This document shows, piece after piece, positions 33,110 to 55,710 of a stretch of DNA of 64,000 nucleotides. The translations under genes were made by a program, and so were the position numbers. Location: NCBI RefSeq assembly GCF_003668935.1, contig NZ_RAWP01000027.1:17555-81554 (forward strand), written 5' to 3'. This DNA is from Corallococcus sp. AB032C (GTDB lineage Bacteria; Myxococcota; Myxococcia; Myxococcales; Myxococcaceae). Positions within the stretch are counted from its first letter, which is position 1; each line of letters begins with the position of its first letter. The notes below the pieces were generated by a model, which searched no databases, had not been told where the DNA came from, and was given only the letters and a program-made list of their open reading frames with translations.

Positions 33110-33343
33110 GGCACACCTGCTCGCGGGAGTGGGGTTCAGCCGCGAGTCATTGCGAGCCCCATGCCGTCACCGCTCGCCCTGGAACGGCTCCGCACCGCAC
33201 CGGACTGGCGCGGACACTCGCTCCACTCCGGTGCGCGGTGTTCCAGACTGGAGCGCATTTCGAACAACCAGCGCCGGGGTTTCCGCATCGTCCGACCCGT
33301 GTGGCTGGTACCGTTTGATGAGCAGGTATGGAGAACCCTCACG

Positions 33344-34246
33344 ATGGCCTTCACTCCGCTCAACGCGCTCAACGCCTTCGTCGCCGTCGCACGGAAGCTG
33401 AGCTTCGTCGTGGCCGCGCGGGAGCTCGGCGTGTCGACGTCCGCACTCAGCCAGTCGGTCCGCCAGCTCGAGGAGCGCTTGGAGACGCCGCTGCTCATTC
33501 GCAGCTCGCGCAGCGTCGCCCTCACGGAGGCGGGCCAACGGCTCCTTGAAAACGCAGGGCCGGCGGTGGACCAGGCGCTGGAGGCCCTGCAGACGGTGAA
33601 GGCCAGGCGTGGCGAAGTGACCGGACGTGTTCGCATCACCGTTCCGACCGCCGCGAGTTCGCTGGTACTCGAACGACTGATCCCCCGGTTCGTCGAACGA
33701 CACCCAAAGGTCGAACTGGAGGTGAGCGTCGATAATCGACTCGTCGACCCTGTCGCCGAGGGTTTCGACGCCGGCATCCGGCTCGTCGAGTCCATTGACC
33801 GGGACATGGTGCACATCCGGCTCACGGGCCCTTGCCGCGTCGTTGTCGCAGGCGCGCCTTCGTATCTCGACAAGCGCGGTACCCCGCAGAAGCCCGCCGA
33901 TCTGCTCCACCATGATTGCCTCGTGTTCCGGCTGGGACCCGGCGGTGGACTCTGGGCGTGGGAGTTGGAGCGTGGAAAGAAGACGGTCCGCGTCCCCGTG
34001 CGTGGACCGGTCGTGCTCAGTGACAACGAGCTGCGCCGCACGCTTGCCATCGCGGGGGTCGGCTTGACTTACGGACTCGAGCCGACGATGTCCGAGGACC
34101 TCCGCAGCGGCCGCCTGCGGGTGGTGCTTTCCCAGTACGCCCCGACGGTGCCCGGCCTGTTCCTCTACTTCCCGAACCGGGCTCAAATCTCTCCCGCGCT
34201 GCGCGCCTTCGTGACGGTCGCCCGGGAGCTGGCCAGCAGTCGTTAA
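33344..34246 (+). CDS. LysR-family transcriptional regulator
   Basis: Seen: HTH (LNALNAFVAVARKLSFVVAARELGVSTSALSQSVRQLEERL). ATG at 33344 is in frame with ORF 32288..34246. Divergent from the MVP gene (235-bp spacer). Confidence 0.8.
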   Translation: MAFTPLNALNAFVAVARKLSFVVAARELGVSTSALSQSVRQLEERLETPLLIRSSRSVALTEAGQRLLENAGPAVDQALEALQTVKARRGEVTGRVRITVPTAASSLVLERLIPRFVERHPKVELEVSVDNRLVDPVAEGFDAGIRLVESIDRDMVHIRLTGPCRVVVAGAPSYLDKRGTPQKPADLLHHDCLVFRLGPGGGLWAWELERGKKTVRVPVRGPVVLSDNELRRTLAIAGVGLTYGLEPTMSEDLRSGRLRVVLSQYAPTVPGLFLYFPNRAQISPALRAFVTVARELASSR

Positions 34247-34315
34247 GCTTTCCTAAAGCGTCCGTCCCAGAACCGGCGGTTTCGCGGAGGTGCCTTCGCG
34301 CGTACACCTCTGCTC

Positions 34316-35371
34316 ATGCCGATGAAGACCACCGGATACGCGGCGCATTCCGCGGATGCGCCTCTTTCTCCCTATACCTTCGAACGCCGCGAGCTCCGGC
34401 ACAACGACATCGCGATGGAGGTCCTCTATTGCGGCATCTGCCATACGGACCTGCATATGGCGCGCAACGACTGGGGCGCGACCCGGTACCCGTTCGTTCC
34501 CGGTCACGAGTTTGTTGGACGTGTCATCGCCGTTGGCTCGGACGTTTCACGCCACAAGATGGGCGACGCCGTGGCGGTGGGATGCATGCTCGACAGCTGC
34601 CAGCGCTGCGACCAGTGCCGCAAGGGCGAAGAGCAGCTCTGTCGCGAGGGCCATACCCACACGTACAACGGCATGGACCGGGTGACCGGAGATCCAACCT
34701 ACGGGGGCTACTCGAAGTTCATGGTGGTCCGGGAGGAGTTCGCGCTCCGCATGCCGGCCGCGCTCGCCCTTTCGAAGGCGGCGCCGCTGCTCTGTGCTGG
34801 CATCACGACGTACTCCCCGCTACGGACGTGGGGCGTCGGTCCGGGGAGCCGCGTGGGGGTCATTGGACTGGGGGGGCTTGGCCACATGGCGGTCAAGTTC
34901 GCCGTCGCAATGGGCGCCGAAGTCACCGTGCTGAGCCGCAGCGCCGCCAAGGAAGCGGACGCCCTCGCGCTCGGTGCGGATCGCCTGTTGGTGTCGACGG
35001 ATGCCAAGGCGATGGCGAAAGCAGGCTCAAGCCTCGATCTCATCATCGACACGGTGCCGACGAAGCACGAGCTCCTCCCCTACCTGCCGCTCCTGGATAT
35101 CGACGGAACGCTCGTCATCGTGGGTCAGGTCGGGCCACTGGCCGAGACGAGCTCGGTGCCACTTCTCTTCGGCCGTCGCCGCATCGCGGGCTCGCCCATC
35201 GGCGGTCTCGCCGAGACCCAGGAGATGCTCGATTTCTGCAGCCGGAAGCAGGTGCTTCCAGATTGCGAGCTGATTCGCATCGATCAGGTGAACGAGGCCT
35301 ACGAGCGGCTCGGGCAAGCAGACGTTCGGTACCGCTTCGTCATCGACATGGCCTCGTTGCCACAGCCGTGA
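34316..35371 (+). CDS. Zinc-dependent NAD(P)-alcohol dehydrogenase (cinnamyl-alcohol dehydrogenase-like)
   Basis: Seen: CGICHTDLH zinc site, GHEFVGRV, structural-zinc Cys cluster (C...CQRCDQC), GLGGLGHMAVKFA Rossmann motif. Confidence 0.85.
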   Translation: MPMKTTGYAAHSADAPLSPYTFERRELRHNDIAMEVLYCGICHTDLHMARNDWGATRYPFVPGHEFVGRVIAVGSDVSRHKMGDAVAVGCMLDSCQRCDQCRKGEEQLCREGHTHTYNGMDRVTGDPTYGGYSKFMVVREEFALRMPAALALSKAAPLLCAGITTYSPLRTWGVGPGSRVGVIGLGGLGHMAVKFAVAMGAEVTVLSRSAAKEADALALGADRLLVSTDAKAMAKAGSSLDLIIDTVPTKHELLPYLPLLDIDGTLVIVGQVGPLAETSSVPLLFGRRRIAGSPIGGLAETQEMLDFCSRKQVLPDCELIRIDQVNEAYERLGQADVRYRFVIDMASLPQP

Positions 35372-35394
35372 AGTCACCCAAGGAATCCAACATC

Positions 35395-37696
<2,302 letters not shown>

Positions 37697-37819
37697 AGTG
37701 TCCAAGAACTCCTCCAGCGAAGCGGTTCCGTCTTGGCTCGATCCCCGGCGTTTGTTCGAATGCCTTCCTGTCAGCGGGCCAGGATGCTCTGGCCCGGTGG
37801 CCCCCACCCCGGAGGAAGC

Positions 37820-38116: not shown

Positions 38117-38995
38117 TCAGCCCTGCGCGGAGCGGGGCTTGCGCGTGGACTTCTTCGTCGTCGCGATCTCCAGCGACAGGTCCATGGCCCGCGCCGAGTG
38201 CGTCAGCGCGCCCATCGACACGAAGTCCACGCCCAGCTTCGCCAGCCGGGGCAGCCGGTCCAACGTGACGCCGCCCGACACTTCGATGGGCACGCGGCTC
38301 GCCGTCAGCTTCACCGCTTCGCGGATCTGCGCGTCGTCCATGTTGTCCAACATGATGACGTCCGCGCCCGCGGCGATGGCCTCCTCCAGCTGCTTGAAGT
38401 TGGTGACCTCCACTTCAATCTTCACCAGCCGGGGACCGTTCAGCTTCGCGCGGCGCACCGCTTCGGTGATGTCGCCACCTACCGCCGCGATGTGGTTGTC
38501 CTTGATGAGGATGCCGTCGAAGAGGCCGAAGCGGTGGTTGGACGCGCCTCCCATGCGCACCGCGTGCTTCGCGAGGCCTCGCATGCCCGGCGGAGTCTTG
38601 CGCGTGTCCAGCACCCGCAGCTTCGAGCCCCGCACGGAGGTCATCGCCTGCTGGGCCAGCGTCGCGATGCCGGCGGCGCGCTGCACCAGGTTGAGCGCCG
38701 TGCGCTCCGCGGCCAGCAGCGAACGCAGCTTGCCGTGGACGCGCGCGGCGACCACCTTCGGTTTGATCTCCTCGCCGTCGCGCTTGAGGACCTCCACCTC
38801 CACCTCCGCGTCCACCATGTGGAAGACGCGGACGAAGGCGTCCAGGCCGGCGACGATCATCTGCTCCTTCGCGACCAGCTCACCGCTGCCCTCCGCTTCG
38901 GCGGGGACCACCGCCAGCGAGGTGACGTCCCCCGCAGCACCCAGGTCCTCGTCGAGGGACAGCGCGATGAGCCGATCGAGATAATCCTGCTGCAC
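38117..38995 (-). CDS. nadC: Nicotinate-nucleotide pyrophosphorylase (quinolinate phosphoribosyltransferase)
   Basis: Seen: QAPRTase motifs ([45 protein letters not shown]). Confidence 0.85.
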
Positions 38996-39004
38996 TTCCG
39001 CCTC

Positions 39005-42000
39005 CTACCGGCGCGCCTTGCGAGCCGGCTTGCCCCGAGTGGTCTTCTTCGCCGCGGCCTTCTTCGCGGCGGTCTTCTTCCCCGCCGCCTTCTTCGCCGA
39101 AGCCTTCTTCGCAGGAGCCTTCTTCACCGCCGCCTTCTTCGCGGCCGTCTTCTTGCCCGCTGCCTTCTTCGCGGAAGCCTTCTTCGCAGGGGCCTTCTTC
39201 GCGGCGGACTTCTTGCTCGCCGCCTTCTTCGCGGAGGCCTTCTTCACCGCCGCCTTCTTCGCGGAGGCCTTCTTCGCAGGGGCCTTCTTCACCGCCGCCT
39301 TCTTCGCGGAGGCCTTCTTCGTCGGAGCCTTCTTCACCGGCTTCGCCGAGCCCTCCGGCGCCTCGCGGGCGTCGCCGCCCTCCTTGGCCCGGTCGAACTC
39401 GCGCATCGCGTCGTCCACGAGGCCCATGCTCATGTACGCGACGCCCAGGTCGTGGTGGTCCGCCGGGGACAGCCCTTCCTTGGTGCCCTCGCGCAGCTTG
39501 TTGAGGGCCTCCTCCACCATCGGATCCGCGGCCTGGGGCGCCTGCGAAGCCTCTTCGGCTTCAATCTCGCCCTTCAGCTCCTGGCCCAGGTTCACCGCTT
39601 CGTCCTTCGGTGCCTGCGGCTCGGTGGCCACCTTCACCTGGGCGCTCTCAGGCGCGAGGGACTCGGACGCTTCAGGGGCTTCGGACTCGGTGCTGCCCGG
39701 CAACGGCGACGGCGTCTCGGACATGGGGGGCTCCGGGGCGATGCGCTGGAGGTGATCCTGCAGCTTGACCGTGCGCTCCTGGAGCTCCGCCACCCGGGCC
39801 TTGTCCTTCTCCACCACGTCCGGCGGAGCACGGGCCACGAAGTTCGGGTTGTCCAGCTTGCGCTGCAAACCGGCGAGTTCCTGCTCGGCGCGGACGATCT
39901 CCTTCTTCAGGCGGTCGCGCTCCGCGTCCAGGTCCACCAGGCCCGCCAGGGGCACGTAGATTTCCAGGTTGCCGCTCACGAACGCCGCCGCCTGCGGAGG
40001 CTTGGCGCCCGGGGGGCCCACCACCACCTCGGACAGGCCCGCGAGCGGCATCAGGTACGCGCGCCAACGCTCCAACAGCTCGCGCGTCGTCGCGTCCGGG
40101 CTCTGCACCACCGCCTTCACCTTGGCGGACGGCGGCAGGTTGCTCTCGCCGCGCAGCGTGCGCAGGCCCTCGATGGCCGCGATGACCGGCGCCATCTCGC
40201 CTTCCGAGGCCGCGTCCACCCACGCCGTCTCCGGCGCCGGGTAGGCCGCGATGCAGATGCTCTCCGTGGGCCGGGACATCGGCAGCTTCTGCCAGATCTC
40301 CTCGGTGATGAACGGCATGAACGGGTGCATCAGCCGCAGGATGCGGTCCAGGCACGTCACCAGCACCGCGCGCGTGGTGTCCTTGGCCTCCGCGTCGTCG
40401 CCGTACAACGAGCCCTTCGCCAGCTCGATGTACCAATCGCAGAACTCCGCCCACAGGAACTGGTACAGCGTGGACGCGGCCTCCGCGAAGCCGAACGCCT
40501 CCAGCGACGCGCGCGTCTCCTCGGTGGCCTTCTGCAGGCGGGAGAGGATCCACCGGTCCGCCAGCGTCAGCTTGCGGCCCTCCAGCGGCGTCTTGTCCAG
40601 GCTGAAGTCGCCCATGTTCATCAGGGCGAAGCGGCTGGCGTTCCACAGCTTGTTGCAGAACGCCTTGTAGCCACCCAGGCGGTCCATCGACAGCTTGATG
40701 TCACGGCCCTGCTGCGTGAGCGACGCCAACGTGAAGCGCAGCGCGTCCGCGCCGTGCGCGGGCATGCCCTGCGGGAAGCGGTTGCGCAAGGACGGCTGCA
40801 GCGACTCCGCCTTCGCGCCGAGGATGACGTCCAGGGGATCGATGACGTTCCCCTTCGTCTTGGACATCTTCTCGCCCTTCTCGTCGCGCACCATCGCGTG
40901 CAGGTACACGGTGCGGAAGGGCACGTCGTTCATGAAGTGCAGGCCCATCATCATCATCCGGGCGACCCAGAAGAAGATGATGTCGTGGCCCGTCTCCATC
41001 ACGGACGTCGGGTAGAAGGTCTGGAGATCCGCCGTCTGCTTCGGCCAGCCCAGCGTGGAGAACGGCCACAGCGCGGACGAGAACCAGGTGTCCAGCACGT
41101 CCGGATCCTGCGTCAGCTCCTTGCCGCCGCACTTCGGGCAGGACTCCGGCGCCGTGCGCGACACGATGACGTCCGCCGTGTCCTTCGAGCGCTCTTCCGC
41201 CGGGGTGCACGCCGCGCAGTACCACGCCGGAATCTGGTGGCCCCACCACAGCTGGCGGCTCACGCACCAGTCGTGGATGTTGTTCATCCAGTGGAAGTAC
41301 GTGTTCGTCCACGACTCGGGGACGAACTTGGTGCGGCCCTCCTCCACGGCCTGGATGGCCGGCTTCGCCAGGGGTTCGATCTTGATGAACCACTGCGGCG
41401 ACAGGCGCGGCTCCACCACCGTGGTGCAGCGCTGGCAGGTGCCCACGTTCAGCTTGTGCGGCTCCTCCTTCTCCAGCAGGCCCAGCTCCGTCAGGTCCGC
41501 CAGCACCTGCGTGCGCGCCTCCCGGCTCTCCAGGCCCGCGTACTTGCCGGTGTCCTTCGTCATCCGCGCCGCTTCGTCCAGGATGGACAGCATCGGCAGC
41601 TTGTGGCGCAGGCCCGTCTGGTAGTCGTTGAAGTCGTGCGCGGGCGTGACCTTCACCACGCCGGTGCCGAACTCCATGTTCACCAGCTCGCCGTCCGCGA
41701 TGACCGGAATCTCACGGTCGGTGAGCGGCAGCGCCACGCTCTTGCCGATGAGGTCCTGGTAGCGCGGATCCTCCGGGTGCACGGCGACGGCCGTGTCGCC
41801 CAGCAGCGTCTCCGGGCGCGTCGTCGCCACGGTGAGGAAGCGCTCCGTGCCCTTCACCGGGTAGCGGATGTGCCAGAGCGAGCCGTTCTTCTCCTCGTGC
41901 TCCACTTCCAGGTCGGAGAGGGCCGTGCGGCAGGACGGGCACCAGTTGATCAGCTTCTGGGCCCGGTACATCAGGCCCTCTTCGTACAGCCGGACGAACA

Positions 42001-42484
42001 CCTCGCGCACCGCGGCCGAGGACTGCTCGTCCATGGTGAAGCGCTCGCGGCTCCAGTCCAGGGACGCGCCCAGGTAGCGGTGCTGCTCACCGATGCGCGC
42101 GCCGAACTTGCCCTTCCACGTCCAGACGCGCTCGAGGAACGCCTCGCGGCCCAGGTCGTGGCGGCTCTTGCCCTCCGTCTTCTTGAGCTCCTTCTCCACC
42201 ACCATCTGCGTGGCGATGCCCGCGTGGTCCGTGCCCGGCAGCCAGAGCGCGTTGAAGCCGCTCATCCGCTTCCAGCGCGTGAGGATGTCCTGGATGGTCG
42301 CGGTGAGCGCGTGGCCGATGTGCAGGCTGCCCGTCACGTTGGGCGGCGGCAGCACGATGCTGAACGGCGGCTTGGAGGAAGGGGCTTCGGCGCGGAAGTA
42401 GTCGCGCTCCAGCCAGTGGTTGTACCACCGCGCCTCCACTTCGGAGGGCTCGTAGGCCTTGGACAGTTCAGTCGTGTCAGTCAT
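39005..42484 (-). CDS. valS: Valyl-tRNA synthetase with ~200-aa C-terminal extension ending in a lysine/alanine-rich (KKAxAKK) histone-H1-like tail
   Basis: Seen: HIGH ([13 protein letters not shown]), KMSKT (EKMSKTKGN), ValRS editing and anticodon-binding regions, coiled coil. An acidic low-complexity segment follows, then a TPR-like motif and about 20 KKAxAKK repeats. 1159 aa. Confidence 0.85.
39045..39345 (-). repeat. In-frame tandem repeats (period about 18-36 bp) encoding AKKA/KKAP lysine-rich tail of ValS
   Basis: Seen: repeated gccttcttcgcgg/cgccttcttc units. Confidence 0.6.
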
Positions 42485-42492
42485 TGCAAGCG

Positions 42493-42514
42493 GCCGGCCC
42501 CCGACGGGGCCGGC
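42493..42514 (-). terminator. GC-rich hairpin (9-bp stem, 4-nt loop) between the romR-like gene and the valS start
   Basis: Seen: GCCGGCCCC-CGAC-GGGGCCGGC lying 8 nt from the valS start codon. May act as a terminator or a regulatory structure. Confidence 0.4.
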
Positions 42515-42537
42515 GGGGAATCAGAGGGGACTGCGAA

Positions 42538-43800
42538 TCAATGCTGGGTCTCGCGGTCCTTGATGAGCCGCTCCAGCTCTTCCCGGATGATGGTCTCCGC
42601 CAGCTGCGGAACGACCTCCCAGGCAATCTTCTCGATGACCTCGCGGGACGCCTTCGACAGCGCCTCGCGCAGCAGCGCCTCTCCGCCATCCGCGGCCGGA
42701 CGGGCGCGCGAGGGAGGAGTCGCCGGCGAGGGGCCGCCGATGTCCAGGGAGATCTCCTCCGCGCCGCTGGGCTCGGGCAGCGAGTCCTCGATGCGGATGC
42801 TCTCCGTGCGGGCCTGCGCCGCGGGCGGGGCGGCCGGAGCGCCCAGCCCGAACGGATCCCGGGCACGGGCGGCCGGAGGCACCGCGGCGGGCGGGGGCGC
42901 GGACGGCAGCGGCGCGGCGCCCGGAGGACGCGGGAAGCCGCCCGGGATGTTCGGGGCGCCAGGGCCCGGAGGACGCGCGGCCATGCCCGGAGGCGGCGCA
43001 CCCGGAGGACGCGCGCCCGGAGGCACGGCACCCGGAGGAGGACGCGCACCCGGCGGCATGGCGCCCGGAGGCGGCGCACCCGGAGGACGCGCGCCCATGC
43101 CCGGAGGCGGCGCACCCGGCGGAGGACGTGCACCCGGCGGCATGGCGCCCGGAGGCGGCGCACCCGGAGGACGCGCGCCCGGAGGAACAGCGCCCGGCAG
43201 CGGACGCGCCGCACCCGGAGGAGGAGGCACACCAGCGCCCGGAGGACGCGCGCCCGGAGGCACGGCACCCGGAGGAGGACGCGCACCCGGCGGCATGGCG
43301 CCCGGAGGCGGCGCACCCGCGGGACGCGCACCCGGCGGCACGGCGGCGGCGGGCGGCGCGCTGACCGGAGCGCTCGGGGCGGAGGTCTGGGGCAGAATGC
43401 GCGTCGCGGCGGACGCGGGCATCGTGTTGGACTTCTGGCCCACCAGCGCCTTCACCTTGTCGAGGAGGATCTGGCTCTCGAAGGGCTTGGTGATGTGGTC
43501 ATCCGCCCGGGCGGCCTTCGCGCGGTTCTCGTCGAACGCCTCGAAGGTGCCGGCGAGCAGCAGCACCGGGATGGCCTGCGTGGAGGGGTCGCCCTTGAGC
43601 GCCTCGCAGACCTCGTAGCCGCTCTTGCCCGGCATCATCACGTCGGCGAGCACCACGTCCGGACGCAGCTCGCGCGTGCGGGAGATGGCGTCCAGCCCGT
43701 TGTCCACCGCGGTCACCTGGAAGTCTTCCGTCGCGAAGATCATCCCGATCACCTTGCGGATGGTGAGCGAGTCGTCGGCGATCAGTAGATTCTTGGGCAT
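42538..43800 (-). CDS. romR: RomR-like polarity response regulator (receiver + proline-rich PGA(P/R) repeats + conserved C-terminal region)
   Basis: Seen: receiver domain (LLIADDSLTIRK...DVVLADVMMPGKSGYEV), a central region of about 200 aa of PPGARPPGA repeats, and a conserved acidic C-terminus (EALLREALSKASREVIEKIAWEVVPQLAETIIREELERL). ATG at 43800. The RomR assignment and the 420-aa comparison are from memory. Confidence 0.65.
   Translation of the reverse strand: MPKNLLIADDSLTIRKVIGMIFATEDFQVTAVDNGLDAISRTRELRPDVVLADVMMPGKSGYEVCEALKGDPSTQAIPVLLLAGTFEAFDENRAKAARADDHITKPFESQILLDKVKALVGQKSNTMPASAATRILPQTSAPSAPVSAPPAAAVPPGARPAGAPPPGAMPPGARPPPGAVPPGARPPGAGVPPPPGAARPLPGAVPPGARPPGAPPPGAMPPGARPPPGAPPPGMGARPPGAPPPGAMPPGARPPPGAVPPGARPPGAPPPGMAARPPGPGAPNIPGGFPRPPGAAPLPSAPPPAAVPPAARARDPFGLGAPAAPPAAQARTESIRIEDSLPEPSGAEEISLDIGGPSPATPPSRARPAADGGEALLREALSKASREVIEKIAWEVVPQLAETIIREELERLIKDRETQH
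42880..43340 (-). repeat. In-frame imperfect tandem repeats encoding the Pro/Gly/Ala-rich linker
   Basis: Seen: repeating cccggaggacgcgcgcccggagg... units of about 45-90 bp. Confidence 0.55.
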
Positions 43801-43917
43801 CGGCTCCGGCCTCGGGGGGCGCATACCCCCCTGAATTCGTTTGAGATTTCGGGCGAGCAAGCCTGCCTGCACGCCCTGTGTCAATCGGAGAAGCTTAGGA
43901 TTCGCGCGTTGGGCCGA

Positions 43918-44784
43918 TCAAGAAAACATGCGCTGCAGGTCCAGTAACATCACCGGATCCGGCAGCCCCGGCGCCCGGAACGTTCCGGGAAGCTCGGCCG
44001 GCTTGAACTTCTGCAGCACACCCAGCACCCGGTTGGCCGCCAGCCCCACGTTCCGCCCCGCCATTTCCGTGAGGACGAACAACTCCTCCGCCTGGGCCGG
44101 CGCACCCAGCAGCGCTGGAATCGAACAGATGGGCCATAGCGCCTGCGCGTGGGGATAGACGCCCGCCACCGGCCCGCTCTGCACCGGGAGGACGCTGAAC
44201 GCCTCGCCCCGGGGTACCACCTGGGAGACGCAACCCAGCGGGACGCCGAACAGCACCCCCTGGGACTCCAGCACCAGCGCCCGCTCAGGGGGCTCGTCCG
44301 CATAGTGCACGGGCCGGGGCTCTGGCGGGGTCGCCCGGGGGCCCGCCCGGTGCGGCAGCGCCTCCACGATGAGCTCCAGGTACAGCCGGTCCTTGTGCAG
44401 CACCGCGCCCCGGCTCAGCGGCGCCAGCGAGTCCGCCAGTCCCGGAGGCAGCAGGAAGAACGGATCCCTCGCGACGTCCGCGACCTCCACCACGGCGCGC
44501 ACCCGCACCGCGAGCGTGGGGCTGACGTCCAGGACCACCACCATGCCCGGCACTTCCTCAGGCAGGCCGCCGAGCAACGCGGCGAGGTCCTTCACTTCCA
44601 GTACGCCGCGCAGACTCGCGCCGCGAGCGCCCGGCATCGCGACCTCGATGACGGAGGTGGCCTCCACCGCGTAGCGCGTCTCTCCGGCCTCCACCAGCAG
44701 GCAGAGCCGCCGTCCGCTTTCAAAGGGCACGGCCCGGGACCCTAGCAGCCTTCCAGCGTTGGGTGCTAAGCCCTGAACAGTCAT
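43918..44784 (-). CDS. Protein with two CheW-like domains
   Basis: Seen: two segments with the CheW-like pattern (LLVEAGETRYAVEATSVIEV...LRGVLEVKDLAALLG and LVLESQGVLFGVPLGCVSQVV). ATG at 44784 is back-to-back with the divergent start at 44783. Confidence 0.6.
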   Translation of the reverse strand: MTVQGLAPNAGRLLGSRAVPFESGRRLCLLVEAGETRYAVEATSVIEVAMPGARGASLRGVLEVKDLAALLGGLPEEVPGMVVVLDVSPTLAVRVRAVVEVADVARDPFFLLPPGLADSLAPLSRGAVLHKDRLYLELIVEALPHRAGPRATPPEPRPVHYADEPPERALVLESQGVLFGVPLGCVSQVVPRGEAFSVLPVQSGPVAGVYPHAQALWPICSIPALLGAPAQAEELFVLTEMAGRNVGLAANRVLGVLQKFKPAELPGTFRAPGLPDPVMLLDLQRMFS

Positions 44785-46171
44785 GGCGCGACTGCTCCTC
44801 GTCGACGACGAAAAGATCGCCCGCAATCTCTACGGCGACTACCTCACGGCCGCGGGACACCTGGTCACGGCGGTGCCCACCGTGGCGGACGCGAAGGCCG
44901 CACTCTCCGCGGCGCGGTTCGACGCGGTGGTGACGGACCTCATCCTCCCCGGCGGCGACGGCATGGAGGTGCTTCGCCACGTGCGCGAGCGCTACCCCGG
45001 CGTGGAGGTGCTGGTCATCACCGGCCTGGACAAGGTGGCCCCCGCGGTGCGCGCCATCAAGAGCGGCGCGGCGGAGTACCTGGTCAAGCCCGTGGCGCCG
45101 GAGGCCCTGGAGCACGCGCTGCGCCGCGCGCTCACCACGCGCGACCTGATGCGTGAGAACGCGTCCCTGCGCCAGCACGTCGCGCTGCTGGAGGCGGGCC
45201 AGCGCATCGCCACCACGCTCGACCGCGAGCGGCTGTCCACGGCCGCGTCCGACGCGCTGGAGTCCATGGCCAACGCCTCCGCGGTGATGCTCCTGGAGCG
45301 GGACCCTGGCGGCACGGGCTTCCGCTCGCACGGCATGCGCGGGCTGCCGGTGGACCTGCACGAGGCGCTCGTCCCGCTGCTCATCGAGCGGCTTTCGGGC
45401 ACGCGCACGCAGGTGGAGCTCGACGGACTTCAAGTTCCCTGGCCGCGCACCCTCTCCTTCCCCGCCGTGGACGGCGAGCTGGTGCTGGGCCACGCGGTGC
45501 TCTTCCACGACAACGCGCCCGCGGAGCACCACGCGGAGACCGTGGGCTTCCTCGTGCGCAACTGGGCGCTGGCCCTGCGCAACCTGGGCCGCTTCGCCGC
45601 CGTGGAGGACCTGGCCTACGTCGATGATCTCACCCGCCTGTTCAACACGCGCTACCTGCACCTGGTGCTGGACCGCGAGGTGAACGAGGCCCTCCAGACG
45701 GAGCGCCCCTTCTCCCTGCTGTTCCTGGACCTGGACCGCTTCAAGGCCATCAACGACACGCACGGGCACCTGGTGGGCTCGCGGGTGCTGGTGGAGGCCG
45801 CGCGCGTGCTCAAGGGCTGCGTGCGCGACCCGGACGTGGTGGCGCGCTTCGGCGGCGACGAGTACGTGGTGCTCCTGCGCGGCACGGACTCCGGCGGGGC
45901 CCTCAAGGTCGCCGAGCGCATCCGCCGCACCATGGAGACCCATCAGTTCCTGGGCCGCGAGGGGCTGGCGCTCAAGCTCACCACCTGCATCGGCGTGGCC
46001 AGCTTCCCGGAGCATGCCCAGGACAAGGACCACCTGCTGGACCTGTCCGACCGGGCCATGTACCGGGGCAAGCGCGGCACCCGGAACGTCGTCTACATGG
46101 CGGCGCAGGACCTGGAAGCCACCCCGGCCGAGCGCCGTCAGAATCCCCCGCCCCCGCAGGGCCAGGGCTGA
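44783..46171 (+). CDS. Response regulator with receiver, GAF-like and GGDEF (diguanylate cyclase, GGDEY variant) domains
   Basis: Seen: REC (LLLVDDEKIARNL...DAVVTDLILPGGDGMEV), GGDEF core (LFLDLDRFKAINDTHGH...RFGGDEYVVLL). Confidence 0.8.
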   Translation: MARLLLVDDEKIARNLYGDYLTAAGHLVTAVPTVADAKAALSAARFDAVVTDLILPGGDGMEVLRHVRERYPGVEVLVITGLDKVAPAVRAIKSGAAEYLVKPVAPEALEHALRRALTTRDLMRENASLRQHVALLEAGQRIATTLDRERLSTAASDALESMANASAVMLLERDPGGTGFRSHGMRGLPVDLHEALVPLLIERLSGTRTQVELDGLQVPWPRTLSFPAVDGELVLGHAVLFHDNAPAEHHAETVGFLVRNWALALRNLGRFAAVEDLAYVDDLTRLFNTRYLHLVLDREVNEALQTERPFSLLFLDLDRFKAINDTHGHLVGSRVLVEAARVLKGCVRDPDVVARFGGDEYVVLLRGTDSGGALKVAERIRRTMETHQFLGREGLALKLTTCIGVASFPEHAQDKDHLLDLSDRAMYRGKRGTRNVVYMAAQDLEATPAERRQNPPPPQGQG

Positions 46172-46185
46172 ACGCCGGACGCGCG

Positions 46186-46581
46186 CTACTTGCGCAGGCT
46201 GCCCACGGTGAGGTGCTTGGGCAGCTCCACTTCCGCGGGCACGCCGCCGCCGCCGCCGCCCTCGCCCACCGCCTCCACCTCTTCGTGAGACGCGCCGGTG
46301 GTGATGAGGCGGTACTTCTGCGACGCCTCGCGGTCGTGCTGGGCCTGCTCCGGATCCAACCGCGCGATGAGCTGCCAGAAGAGGGCCGCGTGCTCGCGCT
46401 CCTCGTCCATGACGTGCCGCAGGATGGCCTTCGCCTCCTCGTTGTCCGTCGCGTCCAGGTGCGCGGCGTAGAGGTTGATGGCGTCCAGCTCCGCCTCGAT
46501 GTTGAGCCGGATGGAGCGGGCCAGTTCGGAGTCCGTCAGCTTCCGGGGCACCAGCGAGTGGAACGGGTTCGTCTGCGGCAT
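46186..46581 (-). CDS. encC: Ferritin-like/rubrerythrin-like encapsulin cargo protein (EncC-like) with C-terminal targeting peptide
   Basis: Seen: EExxH-type diiron motifs (EAELDAINLYAAH, MDEEREHAALFW), a Gly-rich linker, and a C-terminal LTVGSLRK resembling encapsulin cargo-loading peptides. About 131 aa; ATG at 46581. Confidence 0.65.
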   Translation of the reverse strand: MPQTNPFHSLVPRKLTDSELARSIRLNIEAELDAINLYAAHLDATDNEEAKAILRHVMDEEREHAALFWQLIARLDPEQAQHDREASQKYRLITTGASHEEVEAVGEGGGGGGVPAEVELPKHLTVGSLRK

Positions 46582-46737
46582 GAGGACCTCAGCGACAGGG
46601 AGGGTTTCCAGCAAGCGAGCGGGCAACGACGTTCCGTCAGGCCGGGCTGGAGGACGTGCGCGAGCATCCGTTCGGTCGCGAGCGCGGTCAACCGAATCCC
46701 GCTGGGGGTGCGTTGCGCGTGAACACCTGCCTCCGCC

Positions 46738-48267
46738 ATGCTCCCGTGCATGGAGACCCCCTCGCCGCTCGCGCAGCTGCTCCAGGCCCTGGACGCGGGG
46801 GACCTGGAGAAGGCACGGGTCGCGGCCGTGGCGCTGCAACGCGCCAACGCCCATACCCATCAGGTCGCCGCGGAGGTCCTCCATGAGCTGCGTCAGCCCC
46901 TCCTGGGCGCGAAGGCCTACGCCCAGCTGCTGGCCGAGGAAGGAGGCTCCAGCGGCCCGCTGAAGCTGCTGCTCGCGCAGGTGGAGCGGATGGAGCAGAT
47001 TGTCTCCGACTTCATCCGCCTGGCCAGCGAGCGGCCGGCCCCGCAGCAGCGGCTGTCCCTGGCCGCGCCCATCTGGGCGGCGGCGAAGGTGTTCAGCGTC
47101 AACCCGGACTCGGCGCGCATCTCGCTGGAGGTGGAGGCCCCCGAGGACCTCACCATCCAGGGCAACGCGCGGCTGATTGAGCAGCTCACGCTCAACCTGC
47201 TCAACAACGCCCGCGACGCCATGTCCGGCCGGGGCCGCGTGAAGGTGACGCTCACGCGCGATGGCGCCTCCGCGGCCCTCTACGTTTCCGACTGGGGACC
47301 GGGCATCCCGGACGAGCTGAAGACGCGCATCTTCGAGCCCTACGTCTCCGCCAGCAAACGCGGCACGGGCCTGGGGCTCGCCGTCTGTCGTCGCATCGCG
47401 CAGGAGCACCACGCGCAGGTTGCCCTGGTGCCGCCCACGACGCTGCGCGAGGTGCCGCCCCCGGCCACGGTGTTCCGCGTGCTCTTCCCGCCCACGGACG
47501 CGCCGCGCCCGCCGCGCAAGCGCCTGCTGGTGGTGGACGACGAGGGCATCATCCGGATGGTCTTCAAGGACCTGATGGACAAGGAGTGCGAAGTCATTGA
47601 AGCGGCCACGGGCGAGGCCGCGCTCGAAATCCTCCGCTCGTCGCGCGTGGACCTCATCGTCACGGACAAGAACCTGCCCGGAATCTCCGGCCTGGAGCTG
47701 GCCCAGCACGCGAGGAAGCTGGACCCCGCGTCGCGCGTCATCCTGATGACGGGCTACCCCTCGCTGGTGACGACGCAGCAGGCGCTGCAGCTGGGCCTGG
47801 TGGACTACCTGCTCAAGCCCTTCGACGACATCCGACAGGTGCGCGCGCTGCTGCGGCAGGCGCTGTACACGCCGGCCGCGCCGCCTGTCCCCGCCCCCAG
47901 CGCTGGCGTGCGCCGGGTGGACGTGCTGGAGGACAACCCGGCCACCGCGCGGCTGATTTCAGAGGCGCTGACGCTGCTGGGCCTGGAGGCGCGCGTCGTC
48001 GCGGGCGCGGAGGTGGCCACCATGGATCCGCCCGTGGGCGTGGTGGTGTCTTGGGACTTCGCGCCGGCCTACGGCAAGAAGGCGCTGGAGCTGGCCCGGG
48101 CCCTGAGCCAGGGCGCGCCCTTCGTCGTCCTGGCCGAGCACCTCACCATGGACACGGCGCTGGCGTCGCTGCGCGCCGGGGCCGCCGCGTGCCTGCCCAA
48201 GCTGCTCTCCGACACCACGGCGCTCAGCCGCGAGCTGGGCCTGGCCTTCAAGAAGACCGCTTCCTGA
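46738..48267 (+). CDS. Hybrid sensor histidine kinase (HisKA-HATPase-REC-REC-like)
   Basis: Seen: H-box (VLHELRQPL), N/G boxes (LLNNARDAM, SDWGPGIP, GTGLGLAV), receiver (LLVVDDEGIIRM...DLIVTDKNLPGISG). Confidence 0.8.
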   Translation: MLPCMETPSPLAQLLQALDAGDLEKARVAAVALQRANAHTHQVAAEVLHELRQPLLGAKAYAQLLAEEGGSSGPLKLLLAQVERMEQIVSDFIRLASERPAPQQRLSLAAPIWAAAKVFSVNPDSARISLEVEAPEDLTIQGNARLIEQLTLNLLNNARDAMSGRGRVKVTLTRDGASAALYVSDWGPGIPDELKTRIFEPYVSASKRGTGLGLAVCRRIAQEHHAQVALVPPTTLREVPPPATVFRVLFPPTDAPRPPRKRLLVVDDEGIIRMVFKDLMDKECEVIEAATGEAALEILRSSRVDLIVTDKNLPGISGLELAQHARKLDPASRVILMTGYPSLVTTQQALQLGLVDYLLKPFDDIRQVRALLRQALYTPAAPPVPAPSAGVRRVDVLEDNPATARLISEALTLLGLEARVVAGAEVATMDPPVGVVVSWDFAPAYGKKALELARALSQGAPFVVLAEHLTMDTALASLRAGAAACLPKLLSDTTALSRELGLAFKKTAS

Positions 48268-48352: not shown

Positions 48353-50044
<1,692 letters not shown>

Positions 50045-55611: not shown

Positions 55612-55710
55612 GGTAGGGCCTCCGGACCTGGTGGCCGGCCCGGTCTTCAAAACCGGTGAGGGGCTGCGAGAGCAGTCCCTGGCGAGTTCGATTCCCGTGC
55701 CCTACCGCCA
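55612..55710 (+). tRNA. selC: tRNA-Sec (selenocysteine tRNA, anticodon UCA)
   Basis: Seen: 8-bp acceptor stem (GGTAGGGC/GCCCTACC) followed by G73 and an encoded CCA. Anticodon stem-loop CCGGT-CTTCAAA-ACCGG gives TCA. Long variable arm (GGGGCTGCGAGAGCAGTCCC), T-loop GTTCGATTCC, 99 nt. Overall collinear with E. coli selC as recalled from memory. Confidence 0.8.

What the first reader, a model, noticed from the sequence alone, without database searches (positions are those of the whole stretch)
42538..46581. Polarity/c-di-GMP/encapsulin-cargo neighbourhood: RomR-like regulator, double-CheW protein, REC-GGDEF, and an EncC-like ferritin cargo gene without a shell gene
The EncC-like protein (diiron EExxH motifs plus a C-terminal LTVGSLRK targeting peptide) lies convergent to a REC-GGDEF gene, and no encapsulin shell (HK97-fold) gene is in the window. 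This implies in-trans loading into a shell encoded elsewhere. On the other side, the adjacent RomR-like, double-CheW and REC-GGDEF genes place this stress-cargo gene next to motility-polarity and c-di-GMP signalling genes. A GC hairpin sits 8 nt from the valS start, between romR and valS.
Basis: partly seen in the sequence, partly recalled or inferred. Interest (0 to 1): 0.5.

Follow-up and report, generated by a model that had tools for sequence, protein, structure and literature searches.

The report
Known EncC cargo gene beside romR
This stretch of a Corallococcus genome is the direct counterpart of the well-studied Myxococcus xanthus valS-romR-cheW-gacA-encC region, so the ferritin-like cargo gene encoded away from its encapsulin shell gene is real but already understood, and the neighbouring "c-di-GMP" enzyme is more likely a cGAMP synthase.

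Summary
The window is 100% identical to Corallococcus assembly GCA_013155175.1, contig JABJTS010000010. The gene order valS, romR, 2xCheW, REC-GGDEF, encC matches M. xanthus MXAN_4460 to 4464, with 72-80% protein identity.

- **EncC (131 aa):** matches the M. xanthus EncC crystal structure 7S8T (E=3.5e-64). Ferroxidase residues are kept in 120/120 homologs and the LTVGSLR targeting peptide in 116/120.
- **Shell:** none in the window. The same assembly has encB'-encA on contig JABJTS010000462, 96% identical to M. xanthus EncA. Neither refutation condition is met.
- **Prior work:** in M. xanthus, EncC is the main native cargo and its peptide alone loads foreign protein.
- **Correction:** the REC-GGDEF is the ortholog of MxGacA, a Hypr GGDEF. 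It has Ser where diguanylate cyclases have Asp and best matches PDB 6D9M, so cGAMP is the more likely product.
- **Neighbourhood:** the block is conserved in about 55 species together with valS, so adjacency does not show coupling. The M. xanthus gacA deletion moves and develops normally.
- **Hairpin:** real and structurally conserved. It is most likely the romR terminator or a valS leader element.

Interest is low.

The parts
39005..42484 (-). valS (valyl-tRNA synthetase, 1159 aa) with a C-terminal Lys/Ala-rich, histone-H1-like tail. Counterpart of MXAN_4460.
   Evidence: Pfam tRNA-synt_1 1.2e-150, Anticodon_1, Val_tRNA-synt_C and HC2. 72% identical to M. xanthus valS.
42493..42514 (-). G/C hairpin (9-bp stem, GUCG loop) in the 53-nt romR-valS spacer, ending 8 nt before the valS ATG. 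Probably the romR terminator or a valS leader element.
   Evidence: Sequence. Centroid fold -23.6 kcal/mol, z=-1.3. A hairpin occurs in nearly all loci where the spacer could be extracted (about 40), ending about 8 nt before the ATG in Corallococcus, Myxococcus, Pyxidicoccus and Stigmatella and about 10 nt in Archangium. Consensus fold: 8 pairs, 183/184 cells paired, 2 pairs with compensatory changes. It was not called as a terminator by the U-tract scan.
42538..43800 (-). romR ortholog (420 aa): REC domain, Pro-rich linker, invariant Glu-rich C-terminal tail.
   Evidence: Pfam Response_reg 1.1e-21. Against M. xanthus RomR: REC 108/116, linker 163/252, tail 52/52 identical, same length. Architecture as described in PMC2034494.
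43918..44730 (-). Double-CheW-domain protein, counterpart of MXAN_4462. The likely start is GTG at 44730 (270 aa). NCBI calls ATG at 44784 (288 aa).
   Evidence: Pfam CheW 51.6 bits, 2 stretches. Orthologs are 269-271 aa and start V/M-x-P-F/Y-ESGRR. The codon at 44730 is GTG. 77% identical to the M. xanthus protein.
44783..46171 (+). REC-GGDEF, ortholog of MxGacA (MXAN_4463). Hypr-type GGDEF, so a predicted GMP-AMP (3',3'-cGAMP) cyclase with an RxxD I-site and a GGDEY active site.
   Evidence: Pfam REC and GGDEF. Best PDB hit is 6D9M, the Geobacter GacA Hypr GGDEF, at 1.8e-48, against PleD at 6e-34. It shares NDTHGHLVGS. 79% identical to the M. xanthus ortholog. The Ser motif is found in 55 of the 56 species loci with an adjacent gacA; in the remaining one the motif region lies outside the contig.
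46186..46581 (-). encC ortholog: 131-aa encapsulated ferritin-like cargo protein (ferroxidase).
   Evidence: PDB 7S8T EncC E=3.5e-64 over the full length. Pfam EncFtn-like 36.5 bits. NCBIfam EncB_fam 111 bits against a cutoff of 90. 80% identical to M. xanthus EncC.
46189..46218 (-). C-terminal targeting peptide KHLTVGSLRK of EncC.
   Evidence: Core motif [LMF][TS][VIM]G[SNTGA][LMF] within the last 16 residues of 116/120 homologs. It matches the published EncC peptide PEKRLTVGSLRR, which is sufficient to load SNAP-tag (PMC10402063).
46663..46691 (-). Conserved promoter-like element upstream of encC: TTGACC (46686-46691), a 17-nt spacer of variable sequence, then GATGCT (46663-46668).
   Evidence: Both hexamers are invariant and the spacer sequence varies in Corallococcus, Stigmatella, Archangium, M. 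hansupus, Aggregicoccus (18-nt spacer) and M. xanthus. This is a phylogenetic footprint only. It was not found by the strict consensus scan.
46750..48267 (+). Hybrid histidine kinase (HisKA-HATPase-REC) divergent from encC. Conserved neighbour, counterpart of the gene beside encC in M. xanthus.
   Evidence: Pfam. Present next to encC in all annotated loci. 76% identical to the M. xanthus protein.

Best explanation
The region is the Corallococcus ortholog of the M. xanthus MXAN_4460-4465 block.

encC is an independently transcribed gene for a two-helix ferritin-like protein. By homology to the solved M. xanthus protein, it forms decamers with ferroxidase sites at the dimer interfaces. Its flexible Gly-rich linker ends in the peptide LTVGSLRK. 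That peptide docks into the inner surface of the family-1 encapsulin shell EncA while the shell assembles. EncA is encoded at a separate locus, next to the second ferritin cargo gene encB. EncC is therefore co-packaged with EncB to oxidise and store iron inside the shell. The cargo and shell genes are shown here; assembly and activity are inferred from the 80-96% identical M. xanthus proteins.

The neighbours are separate, known genes:
- romR, a polarity regulator
- a two-CheW-domain protein
- gacA, a Hypr REC-GGDEF predicted to make mainly cGAMP rather than c-di-GMP

Their adjacency to encC is inherited synteny, not a demonstrated functional unit. The hairpin before valS is a conserved stem-loop. 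It most likely terminates or attenuates romR transcription just ahead of valS.
For: Identity of the window: 100% over 20,396 bp to GCA_013155175.1, contig JABJTS010000010.1.

EncC:
- Full-length match to 7S8T and family models passed.
- Ferroxidase residue pattern in 120/120 homologs and targeting-peptide core in 116/120.

Shell:
- None in the window.
- The same assembly has encB'-encA-sigma54 activator on contig JABJTS010000462.1.
- That EncA is 96% identical to PDB 4PT2, with Asp39, Asp214 and Tyr217 unchanged. It scores 288 bits on NCBIfam encap_f1.
- Sister strain AB030 has the identical EncC and a full encB-encA on different contigs.

Literature:
- EncC is MXAN_4464 (PMC11202242).
- Native particles hold about 92 EncC copies (PMC11126975), which is 52% of the cargo, and the peptide alone loads SNAP-tag (PMC10402063).
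- Locus map of MXAN4460-4463 (PMC2034494).

Orthology of all six genes to M. xanthus is 72-80%. The Hypr signature is shown and defined in PMC6456294; the MxGacA assignment is in 10.1101/600031. The block is conserved in 57 species loci. The hairpin is conserved with compensatory changes.
Against: - No experiment exists for this Corallococcus strain. Encapsulation, ferroxidase activity and the nucleotide product of the GGDEF enzyme are all inferred from orthologs.
- The shell contig in the window's assembly is short (6.2 kb) and encB is cut by the contig end.
- Hypr GGDEF enzymes are promiscuous and also make some c-di-GMP (PMC6456294, PMC9140294). The cross-dimer residue here is Thr, which has not been characterised.
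- The hairpin has no U-tract in this genome (CGCUUGCA) and was not called by the terminator scan.
Confidence: 0.9

Rival explanations
1. Functional neighbourhood. In this reading, encC, gacA, the 2xCheW gene, romR and the adjacent hybrid kinase form one signalling or stress module. The kinase would phosphorylate the GacA and/or RomR receiver domains, the CheW protein would act as a scaffold, and iron or oxidative status would be linked to polarity or gliding through cGAMP.
For: - HK, encC, gacA, cheW2 and romR are adjacent in essentially every genome that has the 2xCheW gene. gacA is adjacent in 56/57 by the automatic test (57/57 after manual review of L052), romR in 47/47 assessable, and encC in 53/54 assessable after manual review.
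- GacA's receiver domain is described as an orphan (10.1101/600031), yet a sensor-less hybrid kinase is conserved two genes away.
- In Bdellovibrio, the Hypr GGDEF Bd0367 controls gliding through cGAMP (PMC9140294), and RomR is required for gliding in M. xanthus (PMC2034494).
Against: - The same block also carries the housekeeping gene valS (46/47 assessable loci), and nadC and groEL in the seven annotated loci. Conservation is therefore explained by vertical inheritance of a stable region.
- encC has its own conserved promoter-like element and is convergent with gacA.
- Deleting MXAN4463 did not affect growth, gliding or T4P motility (PMC4686200). It is not among the four GGDEF/EAL/HD-GYP mutants reported with developmental defects (PMC4877007).
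- One divergent MAG (L079) has a CxxCH lipoprotein gene in place of encC while keeping the rest of the block.
Confidence: 0.1
2. The REC-GGDEF is an ordinary diguanylate cyclase that makes c-di-GMP.
For: - Pfam and NCBIfam call it GGDEF / diguanylate cyclase.
- It has an intact RxxD I-site and a GGDE-Y motif.
- Hypr enzymes do make some c-di-GMP in vitro (PMC6456294).
Against: - The guanine-specifying Asp (PleD D344) is replaced by Ser in this protein and in 55 of the 56 species loci with an adjacent gacA. The S-to-D mutant of GacA is what converts it into a diguanylate cyclase (PMC6456294, PMC9140294).
- The closest solved structure is the Hypr GGDEF 6D9M.
- The M. xanthus ortholog is listed as GMP-AMP cyclase MxGacA (10.1101/600031).
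Confidence: 0.12
3. EncC in this organism works as a free, non-encapsulated ferritin-like protein, and its C-terminal motif is only a relic.
For: The gene is unlinked to the shell gene. Encapsulated ferritins lack storage capacity of their own, so this would need a different role.
Against: - The targeting peptide is under clear purifying selection: 116/120 homologs, and 47 of 57 species loci by the automatic test, with five more recovered by hand.
- The shell, with unchanged peptide-contact residues, is in the same genome.
- EncC is the most abundant cargo in native M. xanthus particles (PMC10402063).
Confidence: 0.03
4. The hairpin is a translational or stability element of the valS mRNA (a 5' stem-loop 8 nt from the start codon) rather than a terminator for romR.
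For: - The distance from the stem to the ATG is fixed at 8 nt in Corallococcus, Myxococcus and Pyxidicoccus, with a conserved CGYYTKCA-ATG tail.
- There is no room for a promoter between the stem and the ATG.
- There is no U-tract in Corallococcus.
Against: - In M. xanthus, M. hansupus and Archangium the stem is followed by a U-run (CGUUUUCA, UUCUCGUUUUCC), as in intrinsic terminators.
- The stem sits directly after the romR stop codon region.
- The two roles do not exclude each other.
Confidence: 0.3

Closest known systems
M. xanthus EncA/EncB/EncC/EncD encapsulin system (EncC = MXAN_4464, PDB 7S8T; EncA = PDB 4PT2/7S20)
   Same: - EncC is 80% identical and EncA 96% identical, with the same ferroxidase residues and the same LTVGSLR targeting peptide.
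- encB-encA sit at one locus and encC at a distant one.
- The genes flanking encC are the same.
   Different: - It is a different genus (Corallococcus).
- The peptide ends in Lys instead of Arg (LRK against LRR), a change shared by the Corallococcus species.
- The linker is Gly-rich.
- There are no experimental data for this strain.
Operon-encoded encapsulated ferritins (R. rubrum EncFtn PDB 5DA5, H. ochraceum EncFtn)
   Same: The two-helix EncFtn fold family, a ferroxidase site formed between monomers, and a C-terminal targeting peptide of the same type (xLxIGSLK) (PMC11202242).
   Different: Those cargo genes lie directly next to their shell gene. encC is unlinked, as already documented for M. 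xanthus.
RomR (MXAN_4461), polarity response regulator of M. xanthus
   Same: - Same length (420 aa).
- REC domain 93% identical, Pro-rich linker, and a Glu-rich tail that is 52/52 identical.
- Same flanking genes (PMC2034494).
   Different: The Pro-rich linker has diverged (65% identity) and contains strain-variable internal repeats.
GacA-type Hypr GGDEF GMP-AMP cyclases (GSU1658, Gmet GacA PDB 5VS9/6D9M, MXAN_4463, Bd0367)
   Same: REC-GGDEF architecture, Ser at the specificity position, a GGD-E motif as the 'Goldilocks' rule requires, and an I-site (PMC6456294).
   Different: The cross-dimer residue is Thr rather than the Tyr304 of Geobacter GacA. The last motif residue is Tyr (GGDEY). The product has not been measured.

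Membership tests
Encapsulin ferritin-like cargo (EncFtn / EncB-EncC family) | Sequence membership in the EncFtn-like family, above curated cutoffs | tested here: met
   Pfam PF22277 scores 36.5 bits (cutoff 27). NCBIfam NF058679 EncB_fam scores 111.2 bits (cutoff 90). PDB 7S8T EncC E=3.5e-64.
Encapsulin ferritin-like cargo (EncFtn / EncB-EncC family) | Ferroxidase-centre residues (Glu, Tyr and ExxH on two helices) | tested here: met
   E31, Y38 and E61-x-x-H64 align with the same residues in EncC and other EncFtn structures. The pattern is present in 120/120 homologs.
Encapsulin ferritin-like cargo (EncFtn / EncB-EncC family) | C-terminal targeting peptide after a flexible linker | tested here: met
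   The protein ends KHLTVGSLRK after a GEGGGGGG linker. The core motif is in 116/120 homologs. It matches the published peptide sequences (PMC11202242, PMC10402063).
Encapsulin ferritin-like cargo (EncFtn / EncB-EncC family) | A family-1 encapsulin shell gene in the same genome | tested here: met
   L022 is GCA_013155175.1, contig JABJTS010000462.1. It carries a 290-aa EncA that is 96% identical to 4PT2 and scores 288 bits on encap_f1.
Encapsulin ferritin-like cargo (EncFtn / EncB-EncC family) | Physical encapsulation and ferroxidase activity | not testable with these tools
   Shown only for the M. xanthus orthologs (PMC11126975, PMC10402063).
RomR polarity regulator | N-terminal REC, Pro-rich linker, conserved Glu-rich C-terminal tail, and orthologous genome position | tested here: met
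   REC 108/116, linker 163/252 and tail 52/52 identical to the M. xanthus protein at the syntenic position. The domain scheme is from PMC2034494.
RomR polarity regulator | Polar localisation and a requirement for gliding motility | not testable with these tools
   Experimental property, known for M. xanthus only.
Hypr GGDEF (GMP-AMP cyclase, GacA type) | Ser (or Thr) in place of the guanine-specifying Asp (GmGacA Ser348 / PleD Asp344) | tested here: met
   The window has NDTHGHLVGS, 6D9M has the same string, and PleD has NDTFGHDIGD. The Ser is kept in 55 of the 56 species loci with an adjacent gacA. The criterion is from PMC6456294 and PMC9140294.
Hypr GGDEF (GMP-AMP cyclase, GacA type) | A GGDEF-type (Asp) rather than GGEEF active-site motif, needed together with the Ser ('Goldilocks' model) | tested here: met
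   The motif is RDPDVVARFGGDEY. The criterion is from PMC6456294.
Hypr GGDEF (GMP-AMP cyclase, GacA type) | A cross-dimer residue that is not Arg (Tyr, Ser, Ala or Gln favour cGAMP) | tested here: inconclusive
   The window has Thr (LFN-T-RYL) where GmGacA has Tyr304 (alignment). It is not Arg, but Thr has not been characterised.
Hypr GGDEF (GMP-AMP cyclase, GacA type) | cGAMP as the main product | not testable with these tools
   Needs an enzyme assay. The M. xanthus ortholog is listed as a GMP-AMP cyclase in 10.1101/600031.
   The residue is Ser.
CheW-like coupling protein with two domains | Two CheW-like domains | tested here: met
   Pfam PF01584 scores 51.6 bits (cutoff 23.5) in 2 stretches. 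The ortholog MXAN4462 is described as having two CheW domains (PMC2034494).
Intrinsic (Rho-independent) terminator | A G/C-rich stem-loop directly followed by a U-tract | tested here: inconclusive
   The stem is present and conserved. The tail is CGCUUGCA in this genome and was not called by the scan. It is U-richer in Myxococcus and Archangium.

The most novel reading that the evidence does not exclude
The near-invariant adjacency of a sensor-less hybrid kinase, encC, the cGAMP-type cyclase gacA, a two-CheW-domain protein and romR may reflect a real signalling module. The kinase and CheW scaffold would feed the 'orphan' receiver domains of GacA and RomR, and cGAMP would modulate gliding polarity, as it controls gliding in Bdellovibrio. 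encC would be co-regulated as part of a surface or starvation stress response.
Probability: 0.08. Interest if true: 0.55.

Novelty: already known. Interest (0 to 1): 0.1.

Why it matters
It matters little as a discovery.

There are three useful outcomes:
1. A correction of the annotation. The REC-GGDEF should be read as a GacA-type cGAMP synthase, not a c-di-GMP enzyme.
2. A quantified picture of conservation. The HK-encC-gacA-cheW2-romR-valS block and the EncC targeting peptide are conserved across about 55 myxobacterial species.
3. A conserved stem-loop and a conserved promoter-like element that could guide transcript mapping.

Tried and rejected
- **Sigma-54 promoter.** I looked for a shared TGG-N9-TGC motif upstream of encC and encB, because a sigma-54 activator sits beside encA. 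None was found.
- **Rfam scan of the whole window.** Nothing falls in the finding's region. In particular there is no riboswitch or T-box before valS.
- **PDB search with RomR.** Only generic receiver-domain hits came back and nothing for the tail. Orthology had to be shown by fetching the M. xanthus locus.
- **Direct look-up of EncB to reach the window's own assembly.** Two sigma-54 activator variants led to other assemblies before P0290 gave the right contig.
- **First automatic synteny table.** It flagged 7 species as lacking encC. Inspection showed 6 were false negatives caused by frameshifted assemblies or a longer ~480-nt spacer. Only L079 truly lacks it.
- **Consensus promoter/terminator scan.** It found no sigma-70 promoter in 42300-47000 and did not call the valS hairpin. 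The promoter-like element upstream of encC rests on cross-species conservation only.
- **Overlapping divergent start codons of cheW2 and gacA in the NCBI calls.** I rejected these as a start-site artefact, because the orthologs use a GTG 54 nt downstream.

Full report
**1. What is in the sequence**

The window has about 70% G+C. Between 38 kb and 50 kb it carries these genes:
- nadC, 38117-38995 (-)
- valS, 39005-42484 (-)
- a REC / Pro-rich protein, 42538-43800 (-)
- a protein with two CheW-like stretches, 43918-44730 or 44784 (-)
- a REC-GGDEF protein, 44783-46171 (+)
- a 131-aa ferritin-like protein, 46186-46581 (-)
- a HisKA-HATPase-REC hybrid kinase, 46738/46750-48267 (+)
- groEL, 48353-49996 (-)

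The ferritin-like gene is convergent with the GGDEF gene, with 14 nt between the stop codons. Its product ends in KHLTVGSLRK. The 53-nt romR-valS spacer holds a 9-bp all-G/C stem with a GUCG loop at 42493-42514. The stem ends exactly 8 nt before the valS ATG.

There are two small corrections. The protein has a single ExxH (E60-E61-R62-E63-H64) plus an upstream Glu31 and Tyr38, not several EExxH motifs. The hairpin taken alone is not unusual for DNA this G+C-rich: z = -1.3, and 17 of 200 shuffles fold as well.

**2. Where the window comes from**

The exact EncC-like protein is encoded in three NCBI assemblies with the same gene order. One of them, GCA_013155175.1 contig JABJTS010000010.1 (64.5 kb), is 100% identical to the window over the 20,396 bases fetched. 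The sister assembly GCA_003668965.1 is Corallococcus sp. AB030. The proteins of these assemblies are named Corallococcus exiguus or Corallococcus in NCBI. The organism is therefore a Corallococcus of the exiguus group.

**3. The cargo protein**

The 131-aa protein matches the crystal structure of M. xanthus EncC (7S8T) over its whole length at E = 3.5e-64. More distant hits are other encapsulated ferritins and EncB. It passes Pfam EncFtn-like and the NCBIfam 'EncB family encapsulin cargo' model, at 111 bits against a cutoff of 90.

Among the 120 best of 301 homologs:
- The ferroxidase residue pattern is present in 120/120.
- The targeting-peptide core [LMF][TS][VIM]G[SNTGA][LMF] lies within the last 16 residues in 116/120. 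Two of the four exceptions are truncated sequences and two are near-variants.
- The consensus is K-R/Q-L-T-V-G-S/N-L/F/M-R-R.

**4. The shell**

tblastn of this probe against the window gives nothing better than E = 8.1. EncC is the only ORF in the window with a targeting-peptide-like tail.

In public genomes, Corallococcus EncA sits directly downstream of a 162-aa EncFtn-like gene and upstream of a sigma-54 activator. That upstream gene is EncB by its match to PDB 7S5C, E = 9e-40. Strain AB030 has the window's exact EncC on contig RAWQ01000078 and encB-encA on contig RAWQ01000007.

I reached the window's own assembly through the neighbouring sigma-54 activator. Contig JABJTS010000462.1 of GCA_013155175.1 carries the 3' end of encB (…PLTIGSLRRGGGSGGSSGGR), a 290-aa EncA and the activator. 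This EncA is 96% identical to M. xanthus EncA. Asp39, Asp214 and Tyr217 are unchanged. PMC11126975 names Asp39 and Asp214 as salt-bridge partners of the peptide's first Arg, and Asp214 and Tyr217 as contacts of the terminal Arg of EncB and EncC. The protein scores 288 bits on NCBIfam's family-1 encapsulin model. The first refutation condition, no shell gene in the genome, is also not met.

**5. This is already known**

- EncC is MXAN_4464 and EncB is MXAN_3557 (PMC11202242), so the two loci are far apart in the M. xanthus locus-tag numbering.
- Native M. xanthus particles contain about 36 EncB, 92 EncC and 47 EncD copies (PMC11126975, citing McHugh 2014). EncC is the main cargo, at 52% (PMC10402063).
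- The EncC peptide PEKRLTVGSLRR fused to SNAP-tag is sufficient for loading (PMC10402063).
- Structures of EncC and of EncA-EncC particles exist (PMC11126975).

**6. The neighbours**

Leonardy et al. 2007 (PMC2034494, Fig. [quoted passage not shown]

I fetched a complete M. xanthus chromosome that carries the exact 7S8T EncC and compared the proteins:

| Protein | Identity to M. xanthus |
|---|---|
| EncC | 80% |
| REC-GGDEF | 79% |
| 2xCheW | 77% |
| hybrid kinase | 76% |
| RomR | 74% |
| ValS | 72% |

RomR is 420 aa in both species. Its REC domain is 108/116 identical, its Pro-rich linker 163/252, and its Glu-rich tail 52/52. The regulator is RomR, not merely RomR-like.

**7. The GGDEF enzyme is a Hypr type**

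The best solved-structure match is 6D9M, the Geobacter GacA Hypr GGDEF domain, at E = 1.8e-48; PleD scores 6e-34. The window's protein shares NDTHGHLVGS with 6D9M, where PleD has NDTFGHDIGD.

The eLife study (PMC6456294) gives the criteria:
- Ser348 in place of the canonical Asp is the signature of Hypr GGDEFs.
- The Ser requires a GGDEF rather than a GGEEF motif.
- S348D converts the enzyme into a diguanylate cyclase.

The window's protein has the Ser, a GGDEY motif and an RxxD I-site. At the cross-dimer position (Tyr304 in Geobacter) it has Thr. That is not Arg but has not been characterised. The M. xanthus ortholog MXAN_4463 is named MxGacA and counted as one of two GMP-AMP cyclases (bioRxiv 10.1101/600031). 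The Ser was found in 55 of the 56 species loci with an adjacent gacA; in the remaining one the motif region lies outside the contig. The 'c-di-GMP' label should therefore be replaced by 'probably 3',3'-cGAMP, with some c-di-GMP possible'.

**8. Is the neighbourhood meaningful?**

The same order, from groEL to nadC, is found in Stigmatella, Archangium, M. hansupus, Aggregicoccus and M. xanthus.

I scanned one genome per species with an alignment of the 2xCheW protein. It found 57 loci, all Myxococcaceae/Archangiaceae-type genomes and related Myxococcota MAGs. Results:
- gacA is adjacent in 56/57 by the automatic test. The one miss (L052) is a frameshifted assembly in which gacA is present.
- romR is adjacent in 47/47 loci with enough sequence.
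- valS is adjacent in 46/47.
- encC is adjacent in 47/54 by the automatic test and in 53/54 after inspecting the misses.
- The one true exception, the divergent MAG L079, has a small CxxCH lipoprotein gene in that place.

So the block is very stable. But it includes plainly unrelated housekeeping genes: valS across the scan, and nadC and groEL in the seven annotated loci. encC also has its own conserved promoter-like element, TTGACC-N17-GATGCT, in which the hexamers are invariant while the spacer sequence varies across six genera. In M. xanthus, 21 of 24 GGDEF/EAL/HD-GYP mutants, including the MXAN4463 deletion, had normal growth, gliding and T4P motility (PMC4686200). MXAN4463 is not among the four mutants reported with developmental defects (PMC4877007).

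I therefore read the adjacency as inherited synteny. A functional module cannot be excluded. The 'orphan' GacA receiver next to a conserved sensor-less hybrid kinase, and the cGAMP-gliding link in Bdellovibrio (PMC9140294), are suggestive. I give this reading about 8-10%.

**9. The hairpin**

A G/C stem-loop lies just upstream of the valS ATG in nearly all of the loci where the spacer could be extracted (about 40). It ends 8 nt before the ATG in Corallococcus, Myxococcus, Pyxidicoccus and Stigmatella, and 10 nt before it in Archangium.

A consensus fold of 23 distinct sequences gives 8 pairs with 183 of 184 cells paired. Two pairs show compensatory double changes, G-C to A-U and C-G to G-C. 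The upper stem lengthens by matched insertions on both arms.

The tail is U-rich in Myxococcus (CGUUUUCA) and Archangium, but not in this genome (CGCUUGCA). The terminator scan did not call it, and Rfam has no match. The most likely role is termination or attenuation of romR transcription just before valS. A role as a valS leader element is a live alternative, and the two are not exclusive.

**10. Verdict**

It is wrong or incomplete about c-di-GMP, and unsupported about functional coupling. Everything maps onto published M. xanthus biology, so novelty is 'already known' and interest is low.

Noticed in passing
window 30833-33109 (-): A 758-aa homolog of the eukaryotic major vault protein: MVP_shoulder 152 bits, plus Vault, Vault_2, Vault_3 and Vault_4 repeats. 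It is a second protein-cage-type gene, about 13 kb from encC. Bacterial MVP homologs, including in myxobacteria, have been described (bioRxiv 10.1101/872010).
   Followed up: partly
window 33275-37745: A stretch of about 4.5 kb is present in this strain but replaced by about 150 nt in the sister strains L001 and L003. It carries a Zn-alcohol dehydrogenase, an aldo/keto reductase and an NAD(P)H-binding NmrA-like gene. It looks like a strain-specific insertion or deletion between nadC and the vault gene.
   Followed up: partly
window 39005-39400 (-), 3' end of valS: ValS carries a C-terminal Lys/Ala-rich repeat tail of about 110 aa (AKKA repeats; Pfam HC2 histone-H1-like, 41.5 bits). The length of ValS varies widely between relatives: 1159 aa here, 1306 in M. 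xanthus and 1355 in M. hansupus.
   Followed up: no
window 42998-43096 and 43235-43333: Two 99-nt direct repeats, 96% identical, lie inside the Pro-rich linker of romR. The linker is the part of RomR that varies between strains and species.
   Followed up: no
window 44730-44784: NCBI gene calls make the divergent cheW2 and gacA start codons overlap by 2 nt. Orthologs instead use a GTG at 44730, which leaves a divergent spacer of only 52 nt (32-55 nt in other genera). That is very little room for two promoters.
   Followed up: partly
window 46750-48267 (+): A hybrid histidine kinase with almost no N-terminal sensor region is conserved next to encC and two genes from gacA in all annotated loci, although GacA's receiver domain is described in the literature as an orphan (10.1101/600031).
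   Followed up: no
window 55612-55706 (+): A selenocysteine tRNA gene (Rfam tRNA-Sec, 70.5 bits, E=2e-12).
   Followed up: no
L079:1908-2521: In one divergent Myxococcaceae MAG, the slot between the kinase and gacA holds a small lipoprotein-like ORF with a CxxCH haem-binding motif instead of encC.
   Followed up: partly
L004:5344-5448 (Corallococcus encB upstream): The encB upstream region has TTGACG-N17-GAGGGT close to the start codon. This resembles the TTGACC-N17-GATGCT element upstream of encC and could be a basis for co-expression of shell and trans-encoded cargo. It has not been tested.
   Followed up: no
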